The notes under the pieces were generated by a model, which saw only the letters and a program-made list of their open reading frames with translations, was not told the origin of the DNA and ran no database searches. A stretch of DNA of 47,897 nt, filler included, from Catajapyx aquilonaris (taxonomy: Eukaryota), in assembly GCA_000934665.2 (NCBI GenBank). It is 2 parts of 2 records of this genome, joined end to end, with 100 filler letters (N's around TTAATTAATTAA, not from the genome) between each part and the next. Parts side by side here need not be neighbours in the genome. Positions count along the whole stretch, not along the records: positions 1 to 23,891 come from JYFJ02005607.1; 1 more part is not named here. The stretch is one strand, 5' to 3'. The stretch's first letter is position 1. Each line of letters opens with the position of its first letter. Positions 5,300 to 47,289 of this stretch are shown here, one piece after another. The position numbers were made by a program, and so were the translations under genes.

Positions 5300-5840
5300 A
5301 GGGACATTATATCGACCACATAAAATGGCAGGTGACATTGACAGATTCAAAAAGGACATAACAATCATGAGAAATATAAATGGTACGTTACGCCTTTGCA
5401 TGAGACACGACACGTTATTGAATGTGATTCAGGTTTGCGAAAATCAAAATTTGAATATAGAAGTGGAACTGCAAAAAATGTTTGCAGTGGTCCTGCCGAA
5501 ATCATCAAGGACTCGTGTTTCTGTTGCATCACAGAGCTCATCGCAGTTACTCAGTATCTGGCTGGTCACTGCATGGCGTTCCGAGGACACAGGGTAAAAG
5601 GTGCAACGAACAAGGGTAACTTCATGGACCTTGTTATCCTCATGAGTCGCTCTTCGCCAGCTTTGGCATCACACCTCGCCAAGATTGAAGCCAAGGGAAA
5701 GAAGGCAACTTCCTTTGTTACGTGGGATAGGCAGAACCAACTTATTGAAAGTGTAGCTAGTTGTATCTGCAAAGAAATTTCTGATGCTGGTGTTTTCAGC
5801 ATCTCTTCGGATGCAAGTTTTGACGCCTCTAAGAGGGAGA
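5300..5840 (+). mobile_element. hAT transposase N-terminal/central fragment (ZMYM1/DUF4371-like)
   Basis: YLAGHCMAFRGH...NKGNFMDLV...LASHL...QNQLIE...FSISSDASFDASKRE (first catalytic Asp region). Confidence 0.85.
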
Positions 5841-5844
5841 TGAA

Positions 5845-6225
5845 GGTGATGCTCCCCAGCAAATATTTTGCCAAGAAAAAACCTTGACAGCTTCTAGCGA
5901 TAAGCCTTGCGGAGGTTTAACCCTGGCAAGTGAGCAATTTTTCCAATTTCTGACAAGTATGGAGGGAAAATTTTCGATCCTCATTCCAGATTTAGCCCAT
6001 AAGGTCAGGGTTGTGGAAAATTTGCAGGCTCATTTGCCTAAGGATACACAGGGATAATTTTCATTGTGTTCTGAGAATCCCTTGGCACAACTACTGCACC
6101 TTTTCTGCAGGTTAAGAGTAATGTGGTGGGTAAGACTCAAAAACAGAGACTTGCAGGATGGTGGGAAAAAGAACAGGGAAATGAAGGATGGTGGCAGAAA
6201 TAGGAAAATGATGAAATTGTTGTAA
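5845..6225 (+). mobile_element. P-element/THAP9-type transposase extreme C-terminus
   Basis: GGLTLASEQFFQFLTSMEGKF...LLHLFCRLRVMWWVRLKNRDL...RNRKMMKLL*; one internal stop. Confidence 0.65.
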
Positions 6226-6355
6226 ATTATATATTTCATATCTACCATGTCATCCCATGAATCACTCTGGTTTCGTCGAATATTGGTAATAAATAATTAC
6301 ATCTGCGCATAATTTTGCATCAATAATAGCATTAATCCCTGGTAATACGGTAGTG

Positions 6356-6587
6356 GTTTCTCCTTCGATGGGATTACGTAATATTATGGTAATTAAGCAT
6401 TAATGTATTCGTTTTTATATGATCTTATAAAATGTAATTTACAATAATACGTCGCCAACTGTCCTCCGTAATTCTGTAGGATCTGGCCGGTTGATGTCCG
6501 TGTCGCCAGACATGTGTTTCTCCTTTGATGGGATTACGTAATGTTATGGTAATTAAGCATTAATGTATTCATTTTATATGATCTTAT
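6356..6587. repeat. Direct repeat of ~72 bp (two copies, ~6356-6428 and ~6516-6587)
   Basis: GTTTCTCCTT(C/T)GATGGGATTACGTAAT(A/G)TTATGGTAATTAAGCATTAATGTATTC...TATATGATCTTAT occurs twice. Confidence 0.9.
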
Positions 6588-6674
6588 CAAGCTACATGCA
6601 TGAACAGCTACATAGAAATATTTAAAATTCTTGGGTAGGCAAAATATTGCGCTTACAATATGATTTCTTTGCAC

Positions 6675-7165
6675 CAGCATTATTTTGCGGGTGTTGCGGC
6701 AGTGCAACGGGGCAAACAATCGTCCAACTACACAGCAGTTTCTCTACTCATCAAGGCTGCTCTCAGTGTACAACCTCGCTTTGGAAACTGCCCTACAACG
6801 GGTGTCAGTGCTGGGCTGCGTGTTTTGTCTACACTGAGCGACATTGCATGCTCGACCAACTCTGGCAAGTCATCTGTCCAATTGAGCATAGATGAAGAAC
6901 TGGACAACTGGTTAAAAGGTTGTGGTCAGAAAGAGCAGGACAACATGCCAGAGTCTACAGTAAATGACCATGATTACAACGAGGCGCAGTGGGGTGACGC
7001 AATTATATATCACACGACAGGTTATGTAATCCGCAAGGTACAACATGTCTTCCATTGTGAAGCATGCCACAAAGCACTGATTGCCTCAGAGGGGGAGAAA
7101 TGTATAGATAATATATCAGTACTGCTTGACACCCGTAACAGGGGGTCATTAATTAAGCCCTCACA
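6675..7165 (+). mobile_element. P-element/THAP9-type transposase C-terminal fragment
   Basis: VLRQCNGANNRPTTQQFLYSSRLLSVYNL..GNC; DAIIYHTTGYVIRKV..HCEAC...RNRGSLIKPS. Confidence 0.8.
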
Positions 7166-7329
7166 ATGTGAGTGGCCCTGCAGCACAAGTTAATCCCTCT
7201 TCTCAAGCATCTACACCTCCATTTACACCTATAGTTCGGCACAATTCAGAATGATGTAGAGAGAATAGTTTTCAAAGTAGGACCTTATCAGTTGAAACTT
7301 GCATATTTAAAAACACTGGAACCACCAGG

Positions 7330-8038
7330 AAACTTATTACCAGATGAATTGGCAATGTTGAGGAAGGAGGTGAATGATTAGTGTCTTTTTTGAAAGAAAA
7401 GCTTGTGGCTGTAAACATTGGCATACCTCAAGATTTTCCCGAGAAAATACGAGTAAAAAAGCTACTTGCAGATGGATCACTGGAAGAGGTGAATGCGACT
7501 CCAGAGGAACTTTGGAAACTTGACGTTTTCTGTGTTCTCCTGGACAGTGTCATTTGGGAACCTAAAGGAGCGTTACAAGGCTGTTCATGCGATATATGAG
7601 ATGTTCAGTTTCTTATGGAATTATTCCGATTTGTCCAAAGAAGAACTGGAGCAGGAAGTGAAAAGATGGGCGAAAATTTATCTGATGTTTCTGCAGAGGA
7701 CATGGATCTTGAAATGGACCATCTCAAGACTATCCAACCAGCGAACTTTAAGAGTGACTTAACTGTTGAACTCAATTACTCACCAGAATCTTACCAATCT
7801 GTTCCCAAATATTTTCATAGCATTGCGCATATTTTGTACATTACCAGTTACTGTTGCTGAAGCAGAAAGATCGTTTAGCTTGTTGGCGCGTGTGAAGAAC
7901 GTGTTTCGCGCAACAATGACCCAAGATAGACTGTCAAGCCTGGGGACCTTAGCTTTGGAAAGCAGTCTTGCGTGCAAGTTAAATTTTGAAGAAATAGACT
8001 GTTTTGCTAAAGTTAAGGCAAGAAATGCTCCATTATAG
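7330..8038 (+). mobile_element. hAT transposase C-terminal fragment with hATC dimerisation domain
   Basis: LFPNIFIALRIFCTLPVTVAEAERSFSLLARVKNVFRATMTQDRLSSLGTLALE; upstream frameshifted segments. Confidence 0.9.
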
Positions 8039-8477: not shown

Positions 8478-10382
8478 CACTCTTAGTCCTGTGCCTTCTC
8501 GTCCTTCACTTCAGAAGGCACATACAAAAAAAGAGTGTTTTTAGAAGGCACACCCCATTGCATTGCTGCATGAGCTCCAGAAGGCACGAGTCATCCTTTG
8601 TGGCTGACTCAGAAGGCACTAGCCGCTGTGCCTTCTCCAAGGATTCAGGTGTACATTCTGAAATGATCGCGGCATGCCTAGTGCCTTCTGGAGCAGTCCA
8701 AGTCCTTGTAGCAATTCGAATCTGGCCGTGTGCTAGGCCTAGTTGTGGCATGGCGGTTTCATTGGTGATATGCTCATAAATCGTTTATTAATGCTTCAGG
8801 TGAAAAAAAAGTCAACAACTTCAAGACTTGACCATGGGTTTTGACAGACAGAGGTTCCTGCGAGGAGCCTGCCAGGAGTGTGAGTGCACTGACTTTGATG
8901 TACCCACAGAAGGGAACCAATGTGACTACTGTGGTTATCGCCCAATTGACCATTCCACCGCAGTACAAGGTACAGTATGATAATGGCACCATAAAGTTAT
9001 GCACTTTAACAATATTGTGAAAATATTTTTTAAACATGGAGACCACAGTTTGCTCTTTTGTGTTAGCTGCACTGCATTCACTGGAAACTGTTTCCTTTTA
9101 GACATGCGAAGAGACTCTCAAATTGATGTAGGAAGGGCTGTAGCCATTTCCCTAAATGTAGGCGCCACTGGAGATGTCCCACAATCCAGAATCTCTATGG
9201 AATATGAAGGTAAATAGCTTTTTGCATATCATATAAACTGGCAGTTGCAGAGCTAACCAAGGTTCACTTTTCCCCAACCAAGATATGAAGCAGAATCAAA
9301 AGTTTTCATGAAGAACCTAAGGCCAAGCGCAAATCATGCAATGTCGGTGCGATGTTGCTATGTAGGAGATAGTGTACGTACTAAAAGATTTTAAAGATGG
9401 AGTGAGGATGCAGTCCCATCCTGTTGCAATAGAACACCCTCAAAACACCATTGCCATGTTACTGTACTGTGATGACGTAGAACTTGCCAATGCACTAGGT
9501 ATGAAAAGAGGGACTCTCTGTACATTACATCTCCTTTCTAAATATCCCACCAACGCATAGGTCCAAGTTATCAAACATTTTTCTGTTAGGAGTTGGTCAC
9601 TCACAAGTTTGTGAAGTTACCTCGGAAACACCATGTATAACAAGTAGTTCCATTGTGTATAGGAGTGTATGGCTATGTATACATGTATTGTTTGATCAAA
9701 CGGCTGTTTGAAGTAACTTATGAACTATTCTACATTTCCAGGGAGGAATACCAGATGGTGTCACGCCAGGGCCACAGCTTTTTGGGCAAGACCATCAAAA
9801 AGTTATATATGGCAACACTGATGGACATCCAACATCCATTCAGCTCAGCATAGATGAGACTCTGAACAGGGGGGCTATCATGTGCCTTTGCACCTACTAT
9901 ATTTTAGATATTTCCTACCCGTCAGCATTTGGCCAGTCCCTTGGCTTCCTGCAGAACATTTTTCTGCCAAGGGACAAAACGTTTGTACGAGGGCACATGT
10001 CCAGCAATTTGAAGGAAGTTTTGGACATGCTGCACCCGCGGAAAAAGAAAAAGAAGCAGCGAAGCGCCAGCCAGACTCATGTCAGCACCAACAAAATAAT
10101 GTTAACCTCAGACCTGTTGTATTATAGTATATGGATTTTGTATGGGGGGACTTCTTTAGGGAAATTTGTTTAGTAAATGTGTCTGGCATCTCTGTACACC
10201 AATTTATTCTTCCCCACACCCTTGACCCAATAGCCACATCAGTGATCTAAAATTGCATCTGAGGGGAGGGAGTTATAAATATTAGAATATGAAGCAAGGG
10301 GTGACAGAAAAAGGTGGGTTGTGGGTGGGAGGGGAGGCTCCATGAATGTGCCTTCTCCGGAGAGGGCACAGGACTAAGAGTG
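8478..10382 (+). mobile_element. Internally deleted EnSpm/CACTA element with both TIRs
   Basis: 22-bp TIR CACTCTTAGTCCTGTGCC(T/C)TCT at 8478-8499 and 10361-10382. GTGCCTTCT/AGAAGGCAC subterminal repeats at 8491, 8513, 8543, 8579, 8611, 8628, 8681 and 10348. Internal transposase piece DFKDG..SHP..LLYCDDVELANALG (9372-9610) and second-ORF piece TYYILDISYP..LGFLQNIF (9880-9970). Confidence 0.85.
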
Positions 10383-10490
10383 ATAACATTGCTTTAACCT
10401 TGTATCTTATTCTTTATACTGCACCAACACCTAACCTGTAGCTTTTGAGCCAAACTGTGTACTAGTAGTAAAGCGTACGGGTTTTGGACG

Positions 10491-11205
10491 GTGAATCCAA
10501 AAACACATCAGATGCGGGAAAAACGAGCACTTGGATCCACTGTCATGAACCAGTTCAAACTCATCAGGAACATGAGCGTCCTACATAAGTTTGAGAAGAA
10601 GATGAACTCTGTGAACATGGCTGTTCTGAGCATGTTTAAGGAGAAAGCAGCAGCAGGTGCGACTATTCACGACCGCACTTTGAGGATCTGGGCTATGGGC
10701 TAGAAGAGGGAGATCGATCCGGAGAACAAGCTCACCTTTAAGGCCTCTCCTTCATGGGTGTGCAGGTTCAAGAAACGGAACAATATTAAGCATCGGGCGG
10801 TCACACACAGGGTCAGCAGGAAGTGGAGAGACAAAGAAGCTAATCTCCAGCAACTGGCTGATGGATTCGTCGAACAGACGCGGAACCTGATCATCACAGA
10901 TGAATACGCACCAGGACAGGTGCTGAATGCAGATCAGGGTCGGTTTGAGAAGGAGATGCACGTCGGACATCGAACACTTCGGACGAGGGGAACAAAAGTC
11001 GTCCGTCAAGTCGTAGGATCAGTAGCTGCCGCAACACACAGTTATATGATCATGCCAGTTGTCTCTGTGGACGGTGAGATCTTTCGACCAATGCATGTTC
11101 TGATTTCCGAATTTAGTGGCGAATTCCCGGCATCGAAGCCAGCAGATCCTTCGAACATCAGATCGTTTGCCGGGAAAACAGCGAACATGAGCAAAAAGGC
11201 GAGAG
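10491..11205 (+). mobile_element. pogo/Tc5-like transposase fragment (CENP-B-type HTH plus start of DDE)
   Basis: IHDRTLRIWA*..FKASPSWVCRFKKRNNI; VLNADQGRFEKEMH.GHRTL..GTKVV; ATHSYMIMPVVSVDG. Confidence 0.85.
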
Positions 11206-11254
11206 AGAGGCTCTTGGTGCTGCCAATTATTACCATCATATTATTATAACCGAC

Positions 11255-11315
11255 CGAAGCAGTGGTAGCGGAGGGGATATGGTATCCGATTGCTAATCGG
11301 GAGGTCCTGGGTTCG
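11255..11315 (+). mobile_element. tRNA-derived (SINE head) fragment, truncated in the T-arm
   Basis: A-box-like TAGCGGAGGGG, anticodon-like stem-loop CCGA-TTGCTAA-TCGG, then GGTCCTGGGTTCG. Confidence 0.55.
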
Positions 11316-11319
11316 TTCG

Positions 11320-11442
11320 CCCTTTCCGGATGAAATTTGGCTCAAGATCTTCTCCCACCTCGACCAACGCGACCTCCTGCACTGCGTAGCCGGCGTCTCC
11401 AAGCAGTGGAACAGGTTGGCGCACGACGCGTCCTCCACATAG
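11320..11442 (+). pseudogene. F-box motif fragment
   Basis: PFPDEIWLKIFSHLDQRDLLHCVAGVSKQWNRLAHD, a full F-box consensus; no ATG, stop at 11440-11442. Confidence 0.85.
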
Positions 11443-11540
11443 TCAAATTGGAGTCGGCGGCCTAACAAAAACAAACTCGGTGATTGGTGACGTAGGTTCG
11501 CACCCCGGGGGCCGCTGACCCTGACCGTGGTTTCCCATCT

Positions 11541-11740
11541 GAATGTCATAAATATTCTGAGAGTTATATGAAGCACAAAATGGCAGAATTGTTTGGTGAT
11601 AAAGTAATATTTACAAATCTGAGAGGACAAGTTAATGTTGCAACATTTCCAGCAAGTGCGTCCGCAATAATTCTTCAGCAATACCACAATATTTTCCAAA
11701 AGGAGATAATGTTGAGGCAGAAAAGAAGCGAATCATTGAA
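11541..11740 (+). mobile_element. Academ-type transposase fragment
   Basis: YSESYMKHKMAELFGDKVIFTNLRGQVNVATF..ASAII..YH...EAEKKRIIE; family assignment from recalled motifs. Confidence 0.55.
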
Positions 11741-11920
11741 ATTGACAGGGAGGACCTACGCAAATCTTTTGACATCTGGACTTCTACCCGCCATCGCCAA
11801 ACTCCGCCCGAATTTGGCAACGGGCTTCATCCTGCATTAACGACAACGCCCTGCCACATCGAGCTCTCCAGGTGAAGGATGTGCTGAAGGACTACAACAT
11901 AGAGCTCTTGCCACCCCCCC
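11741..11920 (+). mobile_element. mariner transposase DDD-domain fragment
   Basis: TYANLL..LLPAIAKLRP..GFILH, frameshift, DNALPHRALQVKDVLKDYNIELLP-PP (LHDNARPH...LPHPP motif). Confidence 0.8.
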
Positions 11921-11934
11921 TTGTCCTTTATCAT

Positions 11935-12925
11935 TATATACATATGAGGAGAGGTACCTAACACTTGAGTTACTGAACCGCCGCGTCCACAGCTTTAACT
12001 ACGGCTTCACAGAGAAGAAAAACAAACCATTCTCTGCGAATTCATCTGCGAATTTTATGGAAAAGTCATCGCGCAATCTTGCTGACAATAACTTAAACAG
12101 AGAGCCCAACAGTCCTGGTGCTTATTCAGGGTATTGCCATTTCTTCTTGCTGACAAAGTACCATCAGGCGACCAATACTGGCAGCTCCTTTTATTGCTGC
12201 TGAGAATTTCTGAAATAGTTTATGCACCAGCTGTAACCGATGTTGTACTTGGAACACTTGATCAAAGAACACCACACTCTTTTCCGGCGACTTTTCCCTC
12301 AGAAGTAGTTAATCAACAAGCATTACCATTTGCTTCACTATCCTAGCAGCATAAAAAAGTGTGGTCCTATGATTGATCAATGGTGCATGAGATACGAGGG
12401 CAAACACAACTTCTTTAAAGTGTTTTCAGGCATAGTGTGCAATTTTAAGAACATTTCAAAAACACTGGCACATAAGCACCAAAAACAGCTTTGCGCATCC
12501 TGGAGCTTAGGAAAAAAGTGGAACAATGTGGAATTCAGGCCTACGAACTATGTAGTTGGACAAAGTGGATTTCGGCAAGAACTGGTAGCAGAGGGTCTCA
12601 GAGATGATGATGACCCAGATTGTTTGTTTCCATGGCACTAAGATACAGAAAAGGCACTTTTGTATGCACAAAGGGCAAGTCCAATGAAAGTGGACTTCCC
12701 TGCTTTGCAAAAATTGTGGACATTGCAATTTATCAACAAGCAGAAGCTTTCTTGATTGTGAAACCATATTGCACAGAATACTTGTATGAGAAGTTGCATG
12801 CATACGCAATAGTATCCAGCCAACTGCCTCTAGTGGCCAAGATAGCAACTGATTTGGCTCATCACATTGCACTTGACATTTGGCATGCATATAAAGACAG
12901 CACAGACTACATGACTGCCACTTGA
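11935..12925 (+). mobile_element. Animal EnSpm/CACTA transposase C-terminal fragment
   Basis: FNYGFTEKKNKP; WCLFRVLPFLLADKVP..YWQLLLLL; KHYHLLHYP..IKKCGP..WCMRYEGKHNFFK..CNFKNISKTLAHKHQ. Confidence 0.9.
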
Positions 12926-12959
12926 CACAACTGCTGGTGGCTGCATCAGCCGATCTGGC

Positions 12960-13201
12960 CACAGTATTACCTCCAGAATTTGATTGGAACATTTGCTGTA
13001 TTTGCCAAAAAGGTGGCGGCAAATTGACATGTCCAATGAAACAATCCTGTGGAAGCTAGACGAAGCCTTGGATATGCATCACTTGCTGCAAATCTGGAAC
13101 AATTGAAGTACTTCAATTACAAGCTGTCATGTGGAAGGGACGTCTGCGTGCTTGATGATGGTGACGTAATTCTTGCATGTTTTTTGAAGCATGCAGCTAA
13201 G
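12960..13201 (+). mobile_element. Academ-type transposase N-terminal fragment
   Basis: FDWNICCICQK; GYASLAANLEQL; LDDGDVILACFLKHAAK. Confidence 0.5.
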
Positions 13202-13240
13202 AATGTCTGAAGAACCATTCTTGGAATTACTAACCAAAGT

Positions 13241-13460
13241 GGAACAAGGAGGAGGAAACACTAATGATGGCAGTATGCCAGACGCTTTTTTGACGACCCC
13301 TTCACTTTCTTCAGAAATTACTGGCATAGACGCGAAAGTGATTCGCAGGATGAGGGTCCTTTTGCAGGCAGTGTCAAGTGCCAAGCCCATTGACACGAGC
13401 GCATTCAAGAAGTATTCTCTGGAAACGGCAGAGCTGCTGGTAAGCTATTACCCGTGGTTG
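13241..13460 (+). mobile_element. Transib transposase fragment (second, divergent family)
   Basis: QGGGNTNDG...PSLSSEITGIDAKVIRRMRVLLQAVSS..ID..AFKKYSLETAELLVSYYPW. Confidence 0.85.
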
Positions 13461-13846
13461 GTACGTCTTGTCTTGGAGAAAAAGAGTAGGGAGCAAAAAA
13501 TAAATAAATCTACAACCAAAGCTGATGTTGGAAAATGTAAGTAGCCACATCTTACACTGTAATTTCTCTGGTGAATATAATTAATAAGTAACTACTGGGC
13601 TGATGATGTGAATGAATTATTGTGCTTATGGTTTTCTTAGGCCCGTAATTTTGACATGCCATTTTCACTTACAATAGGCCCCGAATAAGTCCAGCCTAAT
13701 ACTCTGAATGACACTGATGCACGTAGTGTGTCCAAAGGCCCTGATGATGCATCCCCTTGGCCACGTTACTCTGCCCATCAACATCGGTGGACAGGTCATC
13801 ATGAAGCGACTCCTGGTCATCCACGACCCTCTGATCTTCCCCACAC

Positions 13847-13975
13847 AAGAATGTCTGAAGAACCATTCTTGGAATTACTAACCAAAGTAGAACCACATAT
13901 TCATACAGATGCAGACCAACAACATAAGAAAGAGCCTTCTTCCTCGCGCCACACCGGCCCCGGGACTACCCTCAG
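13847..13975 (+). mobile_element. Harbinger-like transposase N-terminal fragment; first 42 nt duplicated at 13199-13240
   Basis: RMSEEPFLELLTKVEPHI...TLR resembles Harbinger RMSxxxFxxLLxxVxPxI; exact 42-nt copy upstream. Confidence 0.5.
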
Positions 13976-14004
13976 GTCACCAGGCTGCAACCGCAGATGC
14001 ACCT

Positions 14005-14092
14005 TCATGGAGTTTGGGAGTTATTATTGGCGAAAAAAAAAACGCGTAAAGTACTTTATGCCTCAGTCAGCAAGAAATTTGGCTTCGTGTGC
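14005..14092 (+). mobile_element. Mutator-like (MULE) transposase micro-fragment
   Basis: GVIIGEKK/TRKVLYASVSKKFGFVC resembles GxIIGxxTxKVLxxxVxNKxCxxC. Confidence 0.45.
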
Positions 14093-14669
14093 CCCACGTG
14101 GTATTGGTAAGGCAAACTCACCCAGCCGCATCATACCCAACGGTCGTGCCCCACGTGGTTGCAACTCACCGGGTGAAAGGAACTCCGCTGCAGGACCCTC
14201 CATACAGAGAGGGGCTCCGAGAGGAGAGGGTAAAAGATGGCCAGCCGCAGAGTGACGGCACACTACTGAACACACACCCCTCATCACGTTGGTGTCCCAT
14301 CCCAGCCCTATTCGTCCTTGCCGTCATGTCCAAAGATACACAGAATAATTTGCAACGTGCCAAGTCTCACGCCATCTCAGGAAAACAAGAAGTCAGAGAT
14401 GATGACAGTGTGTATTAAAAACCATATGAGGAGGTTAAAAGCAAAAACCGATAACTCCAGTTTTGGCGGGAAACGAGATTGAAAGTGCGGTGTGACTTTG
14501 AATGAAAAGAAGAAAAAAAACAGGTCAATTTCGCCATCTGTTGGCTCAGCTTTCAATTATCACAACAGATGAATACTTGTCATTTCAGGCTAAATGGGAC
14601 GGCGGAGCAGATGCCGGTCCCTGTATGACGAGAAAGTGCCCCAACACAGCAGCCGGGGGCAACAGCAGA

Positions 14670-14800
14670 AGGGACCAGCCCGTGAGGAGGAGAAGCCGGT
14701 ACCCAACGAAGCCCCAGAATGTGAGGGACTTTGTTTTGTAAATTGTTCTTGAAATAATCGTACAACCATGTAAAAATTTATGGAGGAGGAATATTATGCA
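14670..14800 (+). mobile_element. LTR-retrotransposon pol tail plus polypurine tract
   Basis: RRRSRYPTKPQNVRDFVL* (RRSxRxxKPPxxLxDYV-like), then GGAGGAGGAA at 14782-14791 followed by TATTATG (decayed TGT start). Confidence 0.45.
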
Positions 14801-15997
14801 TCCTGTCAGCCATAAGGCAGTAGTTGAGGTCACACATGTTAGCACCCACTAACCGACCTTTTCTCAGTTCTCCCTTGCCGTTACCGAATCCTTCTCCACC
14901 AGCCTGCCTGCCTAGCCCTTCAGACGTATCCCCCAGAATATGCCACCCTAACCCCATCACCTTACCCTAACCACCTCAAGGATCCAAAAAACCCCAGTCG
15001 CTTCCCCTCTCAGGAGTATCATTAACCGAACCCATGCAAGACGACCACATGACAGGGCGGACGAGTGCTGGACACCGTGCTGGACACCGTACTGGACAGC
15101 AAGAGTCCCTTTGGCCATATCTTGCTAGATTCCTTCAGAAGTACAAGGTATTATTTAACGAAAATAAATTTCAAAATGTTTCTCACAAACAAATTTTTTA
15201 TGCAATGTGTTTCATATCCTAGGTACTCCCTCCACATTAGCGGAAGCCGACATTTGGTGATATCACAGCTACTTCTGTGCCTTCAGAAAGATTGTTTTCC
15301 AAGGCAGGAAATCTCATCACAGAACAGAAATGAGGAACCGACTTTGCCCTGAGGGGGCCTCAAAATTGCTCATTTTGGGGGGAGCTCATTTTTAATATGC
15401 ATAAATACCTTGTGGCATGCACGTGCTTATACACTATATTTCATATACTCAGCAGATAGCCTCTGTGGTAACCTGTAATGTGCCTTTTGAGAAAAAACCA
15501 GTTTGATAGCCCACCTGAAAACAATCATGTACATCGGTTGGTCAAAGTTATAGCAAAAGGTTGTCTGCACAACATTGCTAAAAAGCAAACATTGCTGTTA
15601 CAGCCAAAACGCATAAGAAGTTGATTTTATTTCAGCACCAGCCATTTATGTGCATTTTCATTATGGAAAAGTTTGTGATACTTCCTTTTGTTTCTTTTTG
15701 TATGACTACCACAAAATCTCTTACCTTCCATCACACAAGTGTTTCATCCGTTACTGTAGCTCTAACAAGTGTCAGATGCATCTATGGTAGTGGAAAGGGC
15801 AACATGTAAAAACGAAAATAATCAAGTTCGTCTCTCAGGATAAATCTGGCGCTCCTTTTCTGGCAAAGAGGGCAGTTGTCTTGATCTTCCGGCAAAGGAG
15901 AGCCAGTGCGGTGGGAGGAAGATGTATTTCCCGCGGAGTTACGCAGATACCATATGCCACGACGGAACTATTGTTGAGGGAGAGGGGCAGAAACGTA

Positions 15998-18009: not shown

Positions 18010-18562
18010 TCAGTAACAACCTCCTTGTTCACGACTACGTGATCAATGGCAATATGGCGTCATGGACACACACTTCCAGTCTCTACTAGCTGGATCAGCG
18101 AGGAAGCGTCCGAGAAGTTCCCAAGCTGACTGACAGGCACGTCAGATCATGTCAGCTACAGAAGATGTCAAGTTGGCGACGCAAGAGTTCAGCAATTCGG
18201 TGTCAAGCGCGCTGATGACACTGTGGCGAACTTTTGCAAGGAGATGAACGACCTGTTCGACATCCTGAATAGCAAGCCACTGTATGACAGCAATCCGTAC
18301 TGTTGCGCTCTGTCGGATGACAGTCCTGAATTGGAGGCTTTGTTGGAATCGAAGCTCACTTGGGTGTCAAGGTGGGCCTTGGCGGACAAAGCGACTCCGC
18401 CTCCATGCGTCAAGGACCTCCAACTGACAATTTCAGCCGTGCTGCACCTTCATCGTGCACTGCGGATGGAGGGCGTGTCAGCATACACCCTGACAGCACG
18501 CCTGAATCAGGGCCACCTGGAGAACCTGTTCTCCTTCGTCAAGAGGCACGGTGGACACAACT
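18010..18562 (+). mobile_element. P-element/THAP9-type transposase catalytic fragment
   Basis: NNLL...WTH..LY*LD..R.VPKLTDRHV..QKM/VKLATQEFSNSVSSAL; FCKEMNDLFDILNS; TARLNQGHLENLFSFVKRHGGHN. Confidence 0.9.
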
Positions 18563-19394
18563 GGGCCAATAGCTCCAGTATATCGCTAGCTATTGGCTGG
18601 GAATGTACAAGTACTGTCGTTGCAAGTGATGAGAAGATGAGGTACCTGGAAGGCTTTCTCCGCAAAATATCAAGAAAAGTGCAATACACATCAGTCGCAG
18701 TACGGGACTATTGGACACAACTTGAATCCCAGCGTCATGCAGTTCAGGAGGATTGTACAGCAGATTACTGCCATGAGCCTGACGGTGCCTCCTTGAAAAT
18801 TCTCCTATTGCAAGTGACAATGCATGTGTCATTTGCCAAGCTCCATATGTGGCTGTGGGACATTCACCACGCTTCCTGACAGTGCACCGATTGATGCATA
18901 TTGCAGGGCCAAACTGTGGCTGCCGAAAGAGAGTCGCCGCCGCTGCAGCTTACATTTGTCTGGTGGTGTCTTCCTGGATGATCAGACTTTCTGACAAGTG
19001 CTTTTTAGTGGTGATGACACTTGTTTATCTCTGGAGGATGCCACCTTCAAGCCAGATGGACGCACATTTAGCAGCTCTGATGAAGGGTATATCCCAGCTG
19101 CATTTACATCAATTTTTGACTGTCCATCAAATCTGACTAATTAATTACATAGACTGATGGCTTTTTTTTTTCTTTCATAGTGGCTTGGTTTAGTTGAGTT
19201 TACTTGGGTAAATTAATGGCCTATTTGATTGTTCATGTTTAATGTAACTTTAATGTGACAATACATTTGTTCTGAAATTAAATTCCAGTGATTATTTTTC
19301 CATTAACACAACTTAAAGGAGCTACATGTGACGGTGAGTGCATCCCGATCAGGAGGAAAGACGGTTAGTATGGCAACACGAAGAAATCATCTAC

Positions 19395-23891: not shown

Positions 23892-23991
23892 NNNNNNNNN
23901 NNNNNNNNNNNNNNNNNNNNNNNNNNNNNNNNNNNTTAATTAATTAANNNNNNNNNNNNNNNNNNNNNNNNNNNNNNNNNNNNNNNNNNNN
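23892..23991. other. Artificial assembly linker with six-frame stop spacer
   Basis: 44 N + TTAATTAATTAA (23936-23947) + 44 N = exactly 100 bp. Confidence 0.95.
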
Positions 23992-26127: not shown

Positions 26128-26942
26128 ATTAGAAATAGAGAATATACATAAAATAGAAAATATGAAAAATAGAGAATAGATACTGTGTGTAAATAGAAAT
26201 AGGAAAATAGATACGGTATGTAAATAGAAATAGGAAAATAGATACTGTATTTGAATAGAAATAGGAAAATAGATGTATAAGTAGAAATATAAAAATAGAT
26301 GTATAAGTAGAAATATAAAATAGATATGTAAGTATAAATATAAAATAGGAAAATGAGATGTAAATAAAAAATAGAAAATAGATTTTCATCTATTATCTAT
26401 TTTTCCTCATTCCTATTTCGATTGAAAATCTATTTTCTATTTTTATTTACACATCTAATTTTCATATATCTAATTTTCATATTTTCCTACTTCCACTTAC
26501 ATATCTATTTTCATATTTTCCTACTTCTACTTACATATCTATTTTCCTATTTTCCTACTTATACTTACATATCTATTTTTTATTTGCCCTATTTTCTATT
26601 ACTATTTACATATATATTTTCTATTTGTCCTACTTTCTATTTCTATTTACATACCTATTTTCTTTTTCTATTTACATACCTATTTTCTAGTTCATTGACA
26701 TAATTATGTCAATGAACTAGAAAATAGAAATATAAAATAGAACAAATAGAAAATAGATGTGTAACTAGAAGTAGAAAATAGGACAAATAGGACAAATAGT
26801 TATGTAAATAAAAATAGACCATAGATATGTTAATAAAATATGAATTAGGGCAAATAGAAAATAGTTATAAGTATAAATAGAAAATGGATACATAAATAGA
26901 AACAGAAAACTGATACATAAATAGAAATGGAAAATAGAAAAA
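26128..26942. repeat. AT-rich AAATAG-based minisatellite with two orientation flips
   Basis: AAATAG blocks 26128-26382, CTATTT blocks ~26383-26690, AAATAG again 26717-26942; perfect palindrome 26680-26727. Confidence 0.85.
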
Positions 26943-27964: not shown

Positions 27965-28516
27965 GTGTCTCGACAGATCTGAACAGGTCTCGACAGGTTC
28001 AAGCAGGTTTCGACCGATCCGAGCAGGTTTCGACAAGTCCGGACAGGTCTGATCAGGTCCGGGCACGTTTAGGGCAGGCCCGAGCAGGTTTAGGGCAGGC
28101 CCAAGCAGGTTTAGGGCAGGTCCGAGCAGGTCTCGACAGATCCGAGCAGGTTTAGACAGGTCCGGTCAAGTTTAGGCCAGGCCCTAGCAGGTTTAGACAG
28201 GTCAGGGCACGTTTAGGGCACGTTTAGGGCAGGCCCAAACAGGTCTCGACAGGCCCAATCCAGTTCGGGCAGGTCCGGGCAGGTTTCGACAGGCCCGGGC
28301 AGATCTCGCCAAGTCCGGACAGGTCTGGTCAGGCCCGGGCACGTTTAGGGCAGGCCCGAGCAGGTTTCTACAAGTCCGGGCACGTCCGGGCACGTTTAGG
28401 GCAGGCCCAAATAGGTCTCGCCAGGCCCGGGCAGGTCTCGGCAAGTCCGGGCAGGTCTGGTCCGGGCTAGTTTAGGGCAGGCCCGAGATGGTTTCGACAG
28501 GTCCGGACAGGTCTAG
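27965..28516. repeat. 10-bp-period GC-rich minisatellite (CAGGTCTCGA/CAGGTTTAGG/CAGGCCCGAG variants)
   Basis: Clear decamer periodicity; related array in opposite orientation at 45220-45870. Confidence 0.9.
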
Positions 28517-29169
28517 TGCGTCTCTTACGACCGATAGTACATCGTGGTCGCGCATATAGCCTATAGAAATCCGCACACGCAACTGTTGAGGTCACTATTG
28601 GCCAGTAACATCCCAAAGGAATCAATTCCACGTAGTCCTTCACGTGCAACTGGTATCCACCCTCACATGGTACCTGCAAAAAAATGGGTTACATTAGATC
28701 AACGCAATGACACGTCTATTCCTAGACACTAATTGATGTTCGACTTCCGGGCAGGTGACGTTACACACACAAAAAAAAAGATGGCGCGGAAGTCGAATTG
28801 GGTTACGGCAGGTCAAAGGCTCGCGTGGGGTTTGCAAAAATAGGAACCTGTCCCTCGTAAGTCTGTTTCTACATCCGTTTGGTACGACGTCGAGGATTGG
28901 AACTGTCATTTTGGGTACCGGAGCATCAGCGGAAGTGTAAATCTAGGATCCAGCCTGCTGTGCACGGGCCACGGATTATATTCGACGTGGGGGTGCGGAT
29001 ATGGGGACTTGGGGGCATGGTTCCAAAAATGGAACCAGGCCTGCATGGTCCCAAAAAAAATTTCGTAATATGATTGGTCGGTGGAACATACTGTCTGCTA
29101 TAAAAATTTTAATCGACATTTCAACTGCCTAATAAATTCAAAATTTTAAAAAAATGTTACACATGTGTT

Positions 29170-30272
29170 ATCAAACGAAATTCGATGTTCGACGATATAT
29201 TGAAGTTAATGACGATTGGTTTGTAGAACAATCTGCTATAAAACATTTTAATCACCATTTCAATTAGTATTTAATAAATTGACAAAATTTTGAACTGTTT
29301 TGAACACACTTACAGTATTATCAAGACAAGATTCGATGTTCGACGATAAGTTATCGATATTCAACGATAGATCGAAGTTATCGATATTTGACGATATATT
29401 GAAATAAACTATATACCGTACAATGATATATTGAAATAAACGATATACCGCACAATGATATATTGAAATAAACGATATACCGCACAATGATATATTGAAA
29501 TAAACGATATACCGTACAATGATATCTTGAAATTAACGATATATCATACAATGATATAAACGATATAGGCCTACCTTATAATGAATGATTTAAATTAACG
29601 ACATTCAACGATAGATTGAAATTAACGCTATTAGACGATACATCGACGTTAACGATGTTCAACTGTACTATGGGGCTCAAATTGTTTAGGCCACTTTATC
29701 CTGGTCTTGAAGCTACCCTTCGCACAGGCCCCATGTTGAGCAGGTGTGCATGTGTGTGAAGGGTTGCTTCAAGACCAGGATAAAGTGTCCAAAACAATTT
29801 GAGCCCCATAGTACATCTAAGTTAATATTCGACGATATATCATATCGAAATTAATGACATTTGATGCGATTGAAGTTAACAATGTTCGACGATATATCAT
29901 ATCGAAATTAATGACATTTGATGCGATTGAAGTTAACAATGTTCGACGATATATCATATCGAAATTAATGACATTTGATGCGATTGAAGTTAACAATGTT
30001 CGACGATAGGTCGAACCTATCGATATTTGACGATATATTAAAATTAACGATATTCCGTACAATGATAGATTGAAATTAACGATATTCAACGATACATAGA
30101 AGTTAACGATATTTGACGATATATTGAAATGAACTATTTTCGGCGATATATCGAAGTTAACGATATTTGACGATACATAGAAGTTAACGATATTTGACGA
30201 TACATAGAAGTTAACGATATTTGACGATACATAGAAGTTAACGATGTTAGACGATAGATCGCTTTAACGATA
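29170..30272. repeat. Tandem array (27-33 and ~59-bp units, TTAACGATAT core) interrupted by a MITE
   Basis: AAGTTAACGATATTTGACGATACATAG repeated at ~30160-30245; three near-identical ~59-bp units at 29820-30000. Confidence 0.85.
29668..29811. mobile_element. 144-bp Tc1/mariner-type MITE, TA TSD
   Basis: TA|CTATGGGGCTCAAATTGTT...AACAATTTGAGCCCCATAG|TA; second copy at 47116-47259. Confidence 0.9.
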
Positions 30273-30816
30273 TTACTGCTAACTAGGACTTCCTAGATAT
30301 TCACTTACTGATCGCCTAATATATAATGCAGGTCCACTACGGGCAAAATTACAGAACCTCATGTGTGGCGGGCTCCCAAAATATTCGTGTCACGTTTTCG
30401 GTGTGCGAAAGCGGAACGCACGCAACTCGTTTGGCCCCCTGGGATGATGAGCCAATTTATTATCACTGTCTACCAACGTCAATCAAAGTCTTCCGGTGCC
30501 TCCCCAATGAAGTGTGACAAATCTTGGTAAAGTGTCGTGCCATCTTTTTTCGGGGGAGGGGGGGGGGTGCTCAAGGAAGTCTCCGTCATGTTTAAAGACA
30601 AGTTGGAACTGTGTCAAAAAACTAGGGTGTATTTTAAAAATTTCGGTTGTAATTGTGACATGTCTCATGCCGAGGCTCGTGTATGTTTTTTTTTCCGGTT
30701 TCTGACATGCACGGTTGGCCATTTGAAACCGAAATTAAGCCACTCGTGCGCCATTCTGCAAATCTGATATTGCACAAAATATCGCAAGTACTACGTGGAA
30801 TAGTGAGTGACCACTA

Positions 30817-30963: not shown

Positions 30964-31464
30964 TATGCAGAATTATTATCAAAATAAGGCTGAAAATATT
31001 GGCAAGAATATTTATTTACTTGTTATTTATTTAATTGAATAAGTACATTTATTAAATTTTATTTTCGCCTTTTAAATGGAGATGTACTCTGAGAAATTTA
31101 TGTAAATTTATTTATTTTATTCAAATAGATTTTTTTATAATTTCTAGCAAATGAATGTTGTAAAAATACTGCAAACAGCATTATGCCAAATATTTACTAA
31201 ATTAAATTTTTTGGGCATATTTAAAGGTGGAAATTCTCTCAGATTTTGTCACTTTGTTTATTTTACTCATATTTTATTTTAAAGAAATTAATGGATAAAT
31301 ACAAAATGTAGTTCATAATTGGAAAATGCAAAATGAACATAATGAATGCATGAATTAAGTAATAATGTGTAGGCCTAATATACTGGTAATGTAAAGAAAA
31401 ATTAAAATGTAAAATATAAAATAAACAACCAGATAAATAAATAATGCACACTATAATAAATCAA

Positions 31465-31970
31465 TACTGGAAAATAAAATAAATATAAATAATGGAAAAT
31501 AAAATATCTAAATAATGGAATATACAGTAAATAAATAAATAATGGAAAATAAAATATCTAAATAATGGAATATACAGTAAATAAATAAATAATGGAAAAT
31601 AAAATATCTAAATAATGGAATATACAGTAAATAAATAAATAATGGAAAATAAAATATCTAAATAATGGAATATACAGTAAATAAATAAATAATGGAATAT
31701 ACAGTAAGTAAATAAATAATGGAAAATAAAATAAATATAAATAATGGAAAAATATCTACATAATGGAAAATACAGTAAATAAATAAATAATGGAAAATAT
31801 AAAGACAAATAAACAAACAAACAAGTAAATAAATAATGAAATAAATAAATAATGTAAAATATACCGATAATCGTGTATAAACGAGCAAATAAAAATATAA
31901 AATAACCAACGAAATAAATAAATAACGGAAAATATATGAACAAACAATTAAATAAATAAATAAATAAATA
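31465..31970. repeat. AT-rich ~49-bp minisatellite
   Basis: AATAATGGAAAATAAAATATCTAAATAATGGAATATACAGTAAATAAAT, about 4 near-exact copies plus decayed ones. Confidence 0.9.
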
Positions 31971-32961
31971 CACTGCCATGAATTCTTCAGAGCAGTTCAT
32001 CCTTTAAAGGGACCAAAACCAACGAATGGGAACTTCTTGGAGGCCCATGTTCCCTACCGAGTTCCCTGAAACTTTATCTCATGTCTGCAATCTGAGAAGT
32101 GTTCCAAAAAGGCGGTTCCAACGTGGAAAAGCAAGCGGGGCGGATACAAACCGTCATTCGGATGGATGCATTTGGCGGTCGTCACCTGCTAAGATCAGTT
32201 AGTTTCTTTTAATAGTGATGGGAGTTCCCCCCAGATTCCCAACTGTGACTTGGAGAGGTGAGTACTAACCTTCTACTAAAGTGGAGGGAGGCTTTTCTTT
32301 GTCTGTCGACAACTCGTTTGCAAATCGGATGGATCTTAAGCCTTGTTTTTGGCTGCCAAGGAGGGGTTACTTGCTAAGTAGGGATCTAGAAAGTGTCATG
32401 TAGTTCCCCCCAGAAGGAGATGTTTTAAATATTTAAACAAATTTTCCATTCTTAGCGGTGTAATTATACACTTCCTGAAGGGCTCAGAAGGCGACACGAA
32501 ACGTGAGGTGTACACGGAAACCTGCTATTTATAGTCCTACTCTTCAATTTTGCAACGTGTTAATTCAACCGCTTATTATGTTACTCCAGGCGTTAATGAC
32601 ACCAGTACAGTATTTTGCAAAAAAAAAATTTGTCTTTGTGAAAAAAAGTGGTATTTACGTTTCCAAAATGAAACTGGACTATTATGCTGTGTAGTTATAC
32701 ACATCACTGCTCTTTGTCCGAGCGTTGTTGTCTTTGCTTCGGGGCGTTTTTCTGTTGTGTATAATGCGAGGGCTGAAAAAACAAACCTCTCTACTTTTTC
32801 ATAGTTGGTTCAGTTTAAATGTCTAATGGTGTAATCACTGTAATGTATGAAGGTGTTTAAAAATATGTGAATGTTACTGAAAAGGCCATATCAATGGGTT
32901 ACCCACTCTTCTAAACAGGGTACATCATGATTACCATAAATTACCTTATTATTACCCTAGA

Positions 32962-33580
32962 TCTGCCGTCCCAAGAAGAAACACCCTAACTACAAAACTA
33001 GTAAGGGTGAAAGTCGCGTGCATGCACTGCAATAATCCCACCTGGCCAAGTGCAGGGCATGCACGCGACTTTCACCCTTACTGGTTTTGTAGTTAGTGTG
33101 TTTCTCCTTGTGACGGCAGAGATTACCTTATAATTATTATAAGGTAATCTCTGCCGTCACTACACTCTTAACCATTTACCTTCTCTAGAGAGGGTAAGAA
33201 AGTGGCCATTTTTACCTTACATTGTAGGCCCTTTTTTACCCTCTATTTTCTAAGGTAATACATGCAAAATTTACCTTAGAATCAATTTACCCAAGAATAT
33301 TTACCTTACAATGTAAGGTAAAAAATGGCCACTTTCTTACCCTCTTTAGAGAAGGTAAATGGTTAAGAGTGTACTTTCACCTGGTTTTGTAGTTAGTGTG
33401 TTTCTCCGTGTGACGGCAGAGATTACCTTATAATAATTATAAGGTAATATCTGCCGTCACAAGGAGAAACACACTAACTACAAAACGAGTAAGGGTGAAA
33501 GTCGCGTGCATGCCCTGCACTGGCCCAAAGGGGATTATAGCAGTGCATGCACACGACTTTCACCCTTACTAGTTTTGTAT
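32962..33580. mobile_element. Three tandem copies of a ~160-bp palindromic element separated by palindromic spacers
   Basis: TCTGCCGTC...GACGGCAGA at 32962-33120, ~33150-33420 (deleted, interrupted) and ~33450-33580; spacers GATTACCTTATAA..TTATAAGGTAAT. Confidence 0.8.
33163..33371. mobile_element. EnSpm-type MITE (CACTCTTAACC termini), TA flanks
   Basis: Long TIRs CACTCTTAACCATTTACCTTCTCT...; internal TTACC repeats; other copies at 38608 and 47290. Confidence 0.9.
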
Positions 33581-38403: not shown

Positions 38404-38607
38404 GTCTACTAAAATCACGCTCACTTTATTTGCCAATCTTGTTTAGTTTTTCTAATGTTAATGAAAAAACTACATTACCCTTTGACAGTTTCATCCTCGG
38501 ATGATGCAACCCAACAAACACGCATTTTACTAAGCTTAATCTACATCAAAAAATGAGATGAAATTATCGCCATTTTTCGTTTTTCTAACGTCAAGGAAAG
38601 AACAGTA

Positions 38608-38833
38608 CACTCTTAACCATTTACCTTCTCTAGAGAGGGTAAGAGAGTGGCCATTTTTTTTTACCTTACATTGTAGGGTAAATATTCTTGGGTAAATTGA
38701 TTCTAAGGTAAATTTTGCATGTATTACCTTAGAAAATAGAGGGTAAATAAGATCCAAGAATATTTACCCTACAATGTAAGGTAAAAATGGCCACTTTCTT
38801 ACCCTCTCTAGAGAAGGTAAATGGTTAAGAGTG
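38608..38833. mobile_element. EnSpm-type MITE, TA flanks
   Basis: CACTCTTAACC...GGTTAAGAGTG with TA on both sides. Confidence 0.9.
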
Positions 38834-39666
38834 TATGACCCTTTGACATTTTAATTTGCATGTTATTTTACACTGATGACCCCAATCCGCAGACCCAGCA
38901 CAATGAACTTTGCTTCACTATACCTGTAGGACATTATGAAATTCCGAATAAATATTACAGCAACCCAACACACTGTACGCCTACTCAACCATACATTATT
39001 AACTACTTCAAGAATAATACATACACCAACTGCTATAATCTCCACTTTAAACAGGGTTTGCTCTAAATTAACCCTATGTTTCACAGTACGGTGATCTACT
39101 ACCTCAGTACATCAAATATTGACATATTGGTTCTGATCAAAACCTAACTGTACAGGTTTCATTTATTTAAGACCAGTTTCTATCTCTAGGATTTTAGCTG
39201 GGGGTACTATTTAGATCAGACTGTTAATCAGGTCTGGCTTTGCAATTGCCAGACTCGCCATTTGTCTTTTCCTAGAACGCCACGCGCCGTCACCGTTTCT
39301 TTCACCGCAAAATTAGAGCTTGCCTAAGCCACAAGCTAGGGGAAGGTGACTTAATAGGATGATTAATTGCCAGCATCTTATACCGTCCCATGTGACTAAT
39401 TCGGCGACAATCCTAGATTTTCTCGGTTGGAAACTGGGAAGGTGTCACTTCCCATATCTACTAATGTTCTAAGGGGTTTCAAAGGCCGTTATTTTCTGGA
39501 GATGTCAAATGGGAATTAGTAAATTTTTAGGGCATGAAATTGTAAAGGATGGTGTTCATAATTATAAGACTGGTTCTGACGACAATATAAAGCAGAACGT
39601 TTGTTGGTATTCCTGTATGTCCGGGCTACCTAACTCATTTCCAGAGTACTGAGAGTAAACAAGTTT

Positions 39667-47259: not shown

Positions 47260-47289
47260 TACCTAAGGAGTACCGAAGAGTGTGTACCA

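What the first reader, a model, noticed from the sequence alone, without database searches (positions are those of the whole stretch)
11205..12000. Six unrelated donors spliced end-to-end in ~800 bp with no termini or TSDs: capture rather than transposition?
Seen: pogo DDE -> tRNA/SINE head (61 bp) -> F-box (~120 bp) -> unassigned -> Academ (200 bp) -> mariner (180 bp) -> EnSpm. Junctions fall in mid-CDS with essentially no spacer (e.g. Academ ...KRIIE|mariner LTGRTY... at 11740/11741). Nested insertion normally leaves TIR/LTR ends at the junctions. Inference: pieces were acquired as short internal segments (templated insertion/repair, loosely like spacer acquisition), or repeated deletion removed everything except coding cores under selection.
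Basis: partly seen in the sequence, partly recalled or inferred. Interest (0 to 1): 0.8.

Follow-up and report, generated by a model that had tools for sequence, protein, structure and literature searches.

The report
Patchwork of dead transposon fragments
A real, single-copy 0.8-kb stretch of an animal genome is stitched together from short pieces of several unrelated jumping genes and one host gene, most simply the scar tissue of one SINE insertion and a few sloppy DNA-break repairs inside a one-way array of transposon remnants.

Summary
The mosaic exists, but it needs corrections. Tools confirm a pogo/Tc5 DNA-binding piece, an F-box piece and a very abundant tRNA-like SINE. The "Academ" and "EnSpm" pieces are real fragments of conserved transposon-like proteins, but their superfamily names could not be verified. 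The "mariner" piece is a sharply bounded fragment of a low-copy repeat (11743-11920) with no Pfam or PDB match.

Two points in the finding are wrong:
- The SINE keeps its own 5' end, at 11253.
- The SINE is one copy split by a 179-bp two-donor insert (F-box piece plus a 67-bp low-copy segment). The insert is flanked by a 6-bp repeat (GGTTCG). The "unassigned" stretch is that segment plus the SINE's continuation.

Apart from the SINE, the stretch is single copy in contigs of four runs, so it is not a recurring Helitron/Pack-type cargo.

All 8 recognisable coding remnants in the first 20 kb lie on the + strand.

Best reading (0.5): a one-way transposon-remnant array, resembling a piRNA cluster, in which one SINE retroposition and about two multi-piece filler/end-joining repairs made the mosaic. 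Oriented "capture" is not excluded. No RNA, allele or sister-species data were available. Interest is modest.

The parts
10449..11249 (+). 5' part of a pogo/Tc5-like transposase gene: one reading frame, 267 codons, one in-frame stop at 10701
   Evidence: HTH_Tnp_Tc5 E 9.4e-6. ORF list. The DDE part is not detected by Pfam at E<=10.
11253..11315 (+). SINE, part a: its own 5' end plus the tRNA-like head, up to the T-arm GGTTCG
   Evidence: Depth about 204,000-245,000 against about 33. 49/51/43 contigs diverge before 11253. Other copies continue past 11315 with an AATCCCGGGG-type B-box sequence.
11310..11315 (+). Left copy of the 6-bp direct repeat GGTTCG
   Evidence: Read. In the joints, 5-6 letters fit either side.
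11316..11431 (+). F-box fragment (host-gene-like), single copy: first piece of the 179-bp insert
   Evidence: F-box-like E 1e-11, profile positions 5-38 of 47. Depth 33-80.
11432..11498 (.). 67-bp low-copy segment: second piece of the insert. Its match overlaps the SINE's GGTT(CG).
   Evidence: Other contigs (136, 607 and 608 nt) match only 11432-11498/11501, with 4-6 differences, and run on unlike on both sides.
11495..11537 (+). SINE, part b: the right copy of GGTTCG and the continuation of the same SINE, cut off at its 3' side
   Evidence: Joints 11309/11315 -> 11495/11517 in other copies. Loose ends before 11495 read as SINE head. The tRNA-like fold is restored when the insert is removed.
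11538..11740 (+).
   Evidence: phmmer: 10 real hits. tblastn E 3e-15 to 5e-5 starting at 11538-11565. Long relatives of 1382-1505 aa.
11743..11920 (+).
   Evidence: A second copy about 91% alike is bounded at 11743 and 11920. Read-through. No Pfam or PDB hit.
11921..12091 (.). A/T-rich spacer and unassigned sequence, possibly the start of the next piece
   Evidence: Read. No homology found.
12092..12928 (+).
   Evidence: P0001 61% identity. tblastn places P0001 residues 5-257 on 12203-12928. DUF4218 only at E 0.076.

Best explanation
This is dead, non-coding DNA: a single-copy patchwork inside a transposon-remnant array that points one way.

Most likely history:
1. A tRNA-derived SINE retroposed into an A/T-rich spot of a pogo-like element. 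Its 5' end at 11253 is intact.
2. A break in the SINE's T-arm was repaired by end joining. The repair filled in 179 bp copied from two other places, an F-box gene piece and a 67-bp low-copy segment, and left a 6-bp repeat with 4-7 nt of microhomology.
3. One or a few further deletion-plus-filler repairs removed the SINE's 3' part and the rest of the pogo element. They joined what was left to short internal pieces of an Academ-like and a mariner-like element, and to the 3' part of an EnSpm-like element.

The uniform orientation of the remnants in the first 20 kb suggests the array is, or was, a one-strand piRNA source read from the minus strand. That is not needed for the repair history.

Shown: the piece boundaries, the copy numbers, the split SINE, the 6-bp repeat and the orientation. 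Inferred: the order of events, the repair pathway, and any piRNA role.
For: - Split SINE. Other copies join 11309/11315 to 11495/11517 with 5-6 shared letters. With the insert removed, ARAGORN calls a 75-nt cloverleaf at 95% of its default threshold. It calls none on the sequence as it stands, and none in 0 of 300 random slices.
- Intact SINE 5' end, with variable A/T-rich flanks in other copies.
- The insert is composite. The F-box homology ends at ~11430 and the 67-bp segment starts at 11432, with its own copies elsewhere.
- Fragments are internal and abut without spacer. SINE part b ends at ~11537 and protein homology starts at 11538. The mariner-like copy is bounded at 11743 and 11920.
- Junctions are far denser than small lesions: 6-7 junctions in 0.7 kb, against 4 frameshifts and 1 stop in about 2 kb of recognisable coding remnants. 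This fits a few complex events better than slow decay.
- Orientation. 8 of 8 recognisable coding remnants in 1-20 kb lie on +. Five of these are strong, 5 of 5 on +.
- Truncated nested transposons in one orientation are the described make-up of flamenco-type clusters (PMC4131230, passages read). Templated insertions at end-joining junctions are described in Drosophila (PMC2943611, abstract read).
Against: - No RNA evidence, so the piRNA reading is untested.
- The orientation count is small. Three of the eight pieces are below Pfam's curated cut-offs, and 5 of 5 gives only p = 0.06 two-sided.
- Described templated insertions at end-joining junctions are usually a few to tens of bases, not 60-200 bp pieces from dispersed donors.
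- For the F-box, pogo-like, Academ-like and EnSpm-like pieces no second copy at >=80% identity was seen. Their donors, and so templating itself, are not shown.
- The region was picked because it is extreme, which inflates the contrast between junctions and small lesions.
- All supporting contigs come from one sample, which may be the one the assembly was made from. No listed exact contig covers 11280-11310 inside the SINE head.
Confidence: 0.5

Rival explanations
1. Oriented capture by template switching. A polymerase or reverse transcriptase hopped between transcripts or DNA of active transposons, a SINE and a host gene. It wrote short sense-strand pieces head to tail into this locus, repeatedly, much as virus pieces are thought to enter mosquito piRNA clusters.
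For: - All pieces with a readable frame have the same sense.
- Junctions have no spacer. The SINE's 5' end is intact and directly follows an internal point of the pogo gene, whose own piece runs back to its N-terminal part.
- There is microhomology at one junction.
- A sharply bounded 47-bp piece recurs 650 bp away with unrelated flanks.
- There are precedents. LINE template jumps fuse up to three transcripts (PMC2104539, abstract read). Virus-LTR hybrids sit in one orientation in unidirectional clusters (10.1101/127498, passages read).
Against: - No poly(A) tail or flanking target duplication was seen around the mosaic.
- No reverse-transcriptase or LTR remnant was found by Pfam in any scanned ORF.
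- Known chimeras have 2-3 parts, and their 3' part is a LINE or SINE 3' end.
- The orientation bias extends over 15 kb, so it is not tied to one event.
Confidence: 0.22
2. Plain decay. Whole elements inserted into one another over time, and many independent deletions removed everything except short internal pieces. No filler or capture is involved.
For: - The SINE is cut at its 3' side, which retroposition cannot do. The pogo-like and EnSpm-like elements are each cut on one side only.
- Truncated, nested transposons are usual in such regions (PMC4131230, passages read).
Against: - The two SINE halves meet at the same 6 bases around a two-donor insert. For two independent truncations that would be a coincidence.
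- Large junction events outnumber small frame-breaking lesions about 4 to 1 per kb.
- No element ends were found at any junction except the SINE's 5' end.
Confidence: 0.15
3. Assembly chimera. A short-read assembler walked through shared repeats (the SINE head, the 67-bp segment, the mariner-like copy) and joined pieces that lie at different loci.
For: - Contigs break exactly in those repeats.
- 11280-11310 is covered only by repeat contigs in the rows listed.
- The window holds an N44-TTAATTAATTAA-N44 join at 23892-23991, a sign of a stitched draft assembly.
Against: - Exact contigs at single-copy depth cross most junctions: 10200-11279, 11311-11461, 11472-11772 and 11863-12800.
- The repeats are shorter than a read.
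- A chimera through the SINE would not place the two SINE halves in order around an insert.
Confidence: 0.07
4. Cargo of a single-copy Helitron or Pack-type transposon that captured gene and transposon fragments in one orientation.
For: Several unrelated fragments lie side by side in one orientation, including a host-gene piece.
Against: The stretch 10200-12800 is single copy apart from the SINE and two low-copy pieces. No terminal repeats or carrier ends were recognised. Ends were not searched for specifically.
Confidence: 0.05

Closest known systems
Unistrand (flamenco-type) piRNA clusters of Drosophila and the flamenco-like cluster of Aedes aegypti
   Same: Dense truncated, nested transposon remnants that almost all point one way (PMC4131230, passages read; PMC7161354, search listing and start of abstract only).
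   Different: Here the recognisable remnants are DNA transposons and a SINE, not gypsy-type elements. Pieces are very short (40-200 bp). Only about 15 kb of the window shows them. No small-RNA or transcript evidence exists.
Filler DNA / templated insertions at end-joining junctions (SD-MMEJ, polymerase-theta type repair)
   Same: An insert copied from elsewhere, a short direct repeat and microhomology at the junction (PMC2943611, abstract read; PMC2567098 and PMC4056370, search listing and start of abstract only).
   Different: The insert is 179 bp from two dispersed donors, much longer than the usual few to tens of bases. The donor of the F-box piece was not found.
Chimeric retrogenes made by LINE reverse-transcriptase template jumps
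   Same: Copies of different transcripts fused directly, in one orientation, often with a small RNA or SINE part that has an intact 5' end (PMC2104539, abstract read).
   Different: No poly(A), no flanking direct repeats, no LINE part. There are six or more pieces, against two or three.
Virus-LTR hybrid capture into mosquito piRNA clusters
   Same: Foreign pieces interspersed with transposon fragments in one direction. Copy-choice recombination is proposed (10.1101/127498, passages read).
   Different: No LTR or reverse-transcriptase remnants and no viral pieces were found here.

Membership tests
Unistrand piRNA cluster | Truncated, nested transposon remnants | tested here: met
   Piece map. 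hAT pieces lie with a P-element-like piece between them.
Unistrand piRNA cluster | Remnants nearly all in one orientation | tested here: met
   8 of 8 recognisable coding remnants on + in 1-20 kb. Only 5 are strong. None was recognised in 20-47 kb.
Unistrand piRNA cluster | Source of piRNAs antisense to the transposons, from one long transcript | not testable with these tools
   No run on record as RNA holds the stretch.
Filler DNA / templated insertion at break repair | The inserted sequence has a template elsewhere in the genome | tested here: inconclusive
   Met for the 67-bp segment and the mariner-like piece. Not met for the F-box and Academ-like pieces, which show no second copy at >=80%.
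Filler DNA / templated insertion at break repair | Microhomology or a short direct repeat at the junctions | tested here: met
   GGTTCG at 11310-11315 and 11495-11500. The 67-bp match reaches 11498-11501.
Filler DNA / templated insertion at break repair | An empty-site allele or orthologue without the insert | not testable with these tools
   No genome is held. Contigs show no alternative form at this locus.
LINE template-switch chimeric retrogene | 3' poly(A) and flanking target-site duplication | tested here: not met
   None seen on reading 10800-15400.
Helitron / Pack-type carrier | The same cargo in several copies with defined ends | tested here: not met
   Single-copy depth of about 33 over 10200-12800, except for the SINE and two low-copy pieces.
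tRNA-derived SINE | High copy number with a defined 5' end | tested here: met
   Depth is about 7,000 times the flanks. 49/51/43 contigs diverge before 11253.
tRNA-derived SINE | tRNA-like head | tested here: inconclusive
   No call by ARAGORN at default or by Rfam. A cloverleaf is called at 95% of the threshold once the insert is removed, with 0 of 300 random controls.
pogo/Tc5 transposase | Tc5-type HTH followed by a DDE_1 domain | tested here: inconclusive
   The HTH is met. DDE_1 is not detected at E<=10.
mariner transposase | Match to mariner transposase models or structures | tested here: not met
   No Pfam or PDB match, with or without read-through. The resemblance rests on recalled motifs only.
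Academ | Academ transposase / XPG-type nuclease proteins | tested here: inconclusive
   Relatives of 1382-1505 aa, two labelled 5'-3' exonuclease by JGI. No Pfam family at E<=0.001. DUF6589 is faint at E 0.0028. No PDB match.
EnSpm/CACTA | Match to CACTA transposase domains | tested here: inconclusive
   The only relative found, P0001, has DUF4218 at E 0.076, under the cut-off.

The most novel reading that the evidence does not exclude
The locus belongs to an array that takes up short, sense-oriented copies of the transcripts (or DNA) of currently active transposons, SINEs and an occasional host gene. Uptake would work by template switching during repair or reverse transcription. The result would be a directional archive that works like spacer acquisition for the piRNA system, here for DNA transposons and without any LTR carrier.
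Probability: 0.12. Interest if true: 0.8.

Novelty: new member of a known kind. Interest (0 to 1): 0.35.

Why it matters
If the reading holds, this is an ordinary transposon graveyard. It is useful mainly as a clean, datable example: a SINE whose consensus is known, split by a two-donor filler insert, shows that break repair can write 60-200 bp pieces of other loci into arthropod DNA. It would matter more if small-RNA data showed that the array is a one-strand piRNA source, and if many SINE copies in this genome carried similar inserts. Then the way such archives gain new sequence, which is not understood for unistrand clusters (PMC4131230, passages read), could be studied from breakpoints.

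Tried and rejected
- No whole genome is held for the window, so donors and orthologous loci could not be searched.
ORF references were used instead.
- Pfam at E<=10 on the 'Academ', 'mariner' and 'EnSpm' ORFs found nothing useful.
- The word-based homology search with the 114-aa ORF found nothing.
- PDB sequence searches with the mariner and Academ ORFs gave chance hits only. The read-through gave none.
- The Atlas search of P0014 gave no usable feature hit, and structure rows had TM under 0.5.
- Earlier-findings look-ups by place (near and relatives) and by sequence gave nothing.
- No RNA holder was listed for the stretch. Run X5, from another sample, covered only the SINE. No statement on expression is made.
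- The literature search for Academ plus XPG was swamped by the word 'academic'.
- In-window repeats do not include the mosaic.
- Three hits (P0005, P0009, P0010) were dropped as repeat proteins matching by composition.
- Minus-strand Pfam rows at E 0.005-0.01 (MC6, DUF4145, GlnE) were treated as chance, being below their cut-offs.
- Not scanned by Pfam: 10 of the 310 ORFs of 60 aa or more (45.5-47.9 kb); 3 of the 153 ORFs of 40-59 aa in 1-21 kb; all ORFs of 40-59 aa beyond 21 kb.
- The idea that the mosaic is a coding chimeric gene was dropped. Frames differ between pieces and each piece is cut mid-domain.
Full report
**What the window is.** The window is eukaryotic and rich in repeats. No whole genome is held for it. 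ARAGORN finds no tRNA and Rfam finds no family at gathering score. There are few long ORFs. The second half is made of satellites and MITE-like inverted repeats. Earlier notes of this scan call the genome arthropod-like. One of them (e1-7506408) reports a one-way array of transposon remnants on another piece of the genome.

**Checking the six donors.**
- pogo: Pfam confirms a Tc5/pogo DNA-binding domain in the ORF 10704-11249 (E 9.4e-6). The downstream 'DDE' part gives no DDE_1 match even at E<=10.
- F-box: Pfam confirms an F-box in 11269-11442 (E 1e-11).
- 'Academ', 'mariner' and 'EnSpm': their ORFs give nothing in Pfam or against PDB sequences. The word-based homology search with the 114-aa ORF also found nothing.
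- 'Academ' by exhaustive phmmer: the ORF 11496-11837 returned 13 proteins at E<=1e-3. Ten share a conserved motif over query residues 12-69. I dropped three as repeat proteins.
- 'Academ' boundaries and relatives: tblastn places this homology at 11538 to about 11690, and a second frame carries it on to 11740. Longer relatives are 1382-1505 aa, and JGI labels two of them 5'-3' exonuclease. They have no significant Pfam family, only a faint DUF6589 (E 0.0028), and no PDB match. The piece is therefore real and transposon-like, but 'Academ' is unverified.
- 'EnSpm': the ORF 12309-12638 found one relative, P0001, at 61% identity. It aligns to 12203-12928 across two frameshifts. Its only hint of CACTA is DUF4218 at E 0.076.
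- 'mariner': read through its frameshift, it still matches nothing in Pfam or PDB. That name rests on recalled motifs.

**What the reads add.** Contigs of three runs of one sample and one run of another were laid at 80% likeness or more.
- Copy number: depth is about 33 over almost all of 10200-12800, so the mosaic is single copy.
- SINE head: the bin 11244-11330 reaches about 204,000-245,000. In the three runs, 49, 51 and 43 contigs diverge just before 11253. This is the intact 5' end of a very abundant SINE.
- Split SINE: other SINE copies join 11309/11315 directly to 11495/11517, and 5-6 letters fit both sides. So 11316-11494 is a 179-bp insert inside one SINE copy, flanked by GGTTCG (11310-11315 and 11495-11500).
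- Two-donor insert: the F-box homology ends at about 11430. A 67-bp segment (11432-11498) has its own copies elsewhere, embedded in unlike flanks, and its match runs 4-7 nt into the SINE's GGTTCG.
- Mariner-like piece: it has a second copy about 91% alike that matches only 11743-11882 and 11776-11920 and then runs on unlike.
- Bridging contigs: exact contigs cover 10200-11279, 11311-11461, 11432-11501, 11472-11772, 11743-11882/11776-11892 and 11863-12800. Among the rows shown, none covers 11280-11310 exactly.

**tRNA-like head.** In a script I removed the insert. ARAGORN then calls a 75-nt cloverleaf spanning the junction at 95% of its default threshold, but not at the default. The sequence as it stands gives none at 90-95%. 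None of 300 random slices of the window gives a call at 95%, and 13 of 300 do at 80%. This supports a tRNA-derived head that the insert splits in its T-arm.

**Corrected anatomy.** The pieces in order are:
- a pogo-like 5' part (10449-11249: one frame, one stop)
- SINE part a (11253-11315)
- an F-box piece (11316-11431)
- a 67-bp low-copy piece (11432-11498)
- SINE part b (11495-~11537)
- an Academ-like piece (11538-11740)
- a mariner-like piece (11743-11920)
- an A/T-rich spacer
- an EnSpm-like C-terminal part (12092-12928)

'No termini' fails for the SINE, and the 'unassigned' stretch is explained.

**Context.**
- What was scanned: Pfam on 300 of the 310 ORFs of 60 aa or more, and on 150 of the 153 ORFs of 40-59 aa in 1-21 kb.
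- Transposon-related hits, all on the + strand: DUF4371 (5342-5884), TNP-like (6664-6834 and 18130-18876), the hAT dimerisation domain (7763-8035), the pogo HTH, and the host-type F-box.
- Orientation count: with the Academ-like and EnSpm-like pieces this makes 8 of 8 on +. Only five are strong, since three Pfam rows lie below curated cut-offs. Two-sided binomial p is 0.008 for 8 of 8 and 0.06 for 5 of 5.
- Retroelements: no reverse-transcriptase or LTR remnant was seen.
- A local repeat: a 47-bp piece recurs at 13199-13245 and 13847-13893 (97.9%) with unrelated flanks.

**Mechanism.**
- Junction density: the recognisable coding remnants carry 4 frameshifts and 1 stop in about 2 kb. There are 6-7 junctions in 0.7 kb. 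Gradual decay should give many more small lesions than large joins, so a few complex events fit better. The region was chosen for being extreme, which weakens this argument.
- Most economical history (inferred): one SINE retroposition into a pogo-like element. Then one break repair that filled a two-piece insert into the SINE. Then one or a few deletion-plus-filler repairs that joined the SINE remnant to the Academ-like and mariner-like pieces and to an EnSpm-like element.
- Precedent for the repair: templated insertion with junctional microhomology is described for Drosophila end joining (PMC2943611, abstract read), although the inserts there are much shorter.
- Orientation: the one-way orientation fits the make-up of flamenco-type clusters (PMC4131230, passages read).

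**Rivals.**
- Oriented capture by template switching fits the same-sense, spacer-free joins and has precedents (PMC2104539, abstract read; 10.1101/127498, passages read). It lacks a poly(A), target duplications and any retroelement remnant.
- Plain decay must accept a coincidence: two SINE truncations at the same 6 bases.
- An assembly chimera is unlikely, given exact single-copy contigs across most junctions. But all contigs come from one sample, and the window holds an N44-TTAATTAATTAA-N44 join.
- A Helitron/Pack-type carrier is not supported by copy number.

**Verdict.** This is a new member of a known kind, and the interest is modest. No RNA, allele or sister-species data could be brought to bear.

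Noticed in passing
window 13199-13245 and 13847-13893: A sharply bounded 47-bp direct repeat (97.9% identity) that starts a few bases before an ATG and reads MSEEPFLELLTKVE. The flanks are unrelated. The second copy continues as a Harbinger-like N-terminus (recalled resemblance), the first does not.
   Followed up: partly
window 23892-23991: 44 N, then TTAATTAATTAA, then 44 N: an all-frame stop linker between runs of N. It looks like an artificial join of contigs in a draft assembly.
   Followed up: no
window 5342-8035: hAT-type pieces (DUF4371 at 5342-5884, dimerisation domain at 7763-8035) with a P-element/THAP9-like piece (TNP-like_RNaseH_C, 6664-6834) between them. All lie on the + strand: a second patchwork of the same style.
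   Followed up: partly
window 18130-18876: The longest ORF of the window (249 aa, + strand), with faint TNP-like (P-element transposase) matches below Pfam's cut-offs.
   Followed up: no
window 11253-11315 and 11495-11537: The SINE family is extremely abundant. The head has about 7,000 times single-copy depth in three runs, and it is also the only part of the stretch seen in a run of another sample.
   Followed up: partly
window 32946-33580, 38604-38835, 47113-47413: Several MITE-like elements share 50-170-nt inverted arms (for example 33161-33228 against 38768-38835 at 100%, and 33248-33372 against 47289-47413 at 98%).
   Followed up: no
window 26130-26935, 27970-28540, 29350-30280, 31390-31980, 42130-43080, 45210-45840: Six separate satellite-like tandem arrays with periods of 10-130 bp. 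Their composition differs strongly: G+C runs from 0.19 to 0.56 per kb.
   Followed up: no
proteins P0015-P0032 (relatives of window 11538-11740): A family of 1,380-1,505-aa eukaryotic proteins with no significant Pfam domain and no PDB relative by sequence. It shows only a faint DUF6589 and a C-terminal CXC-like signal. It is probably the large protein of a poorly described DNA-transposon superfamily.
   Followed up: partly
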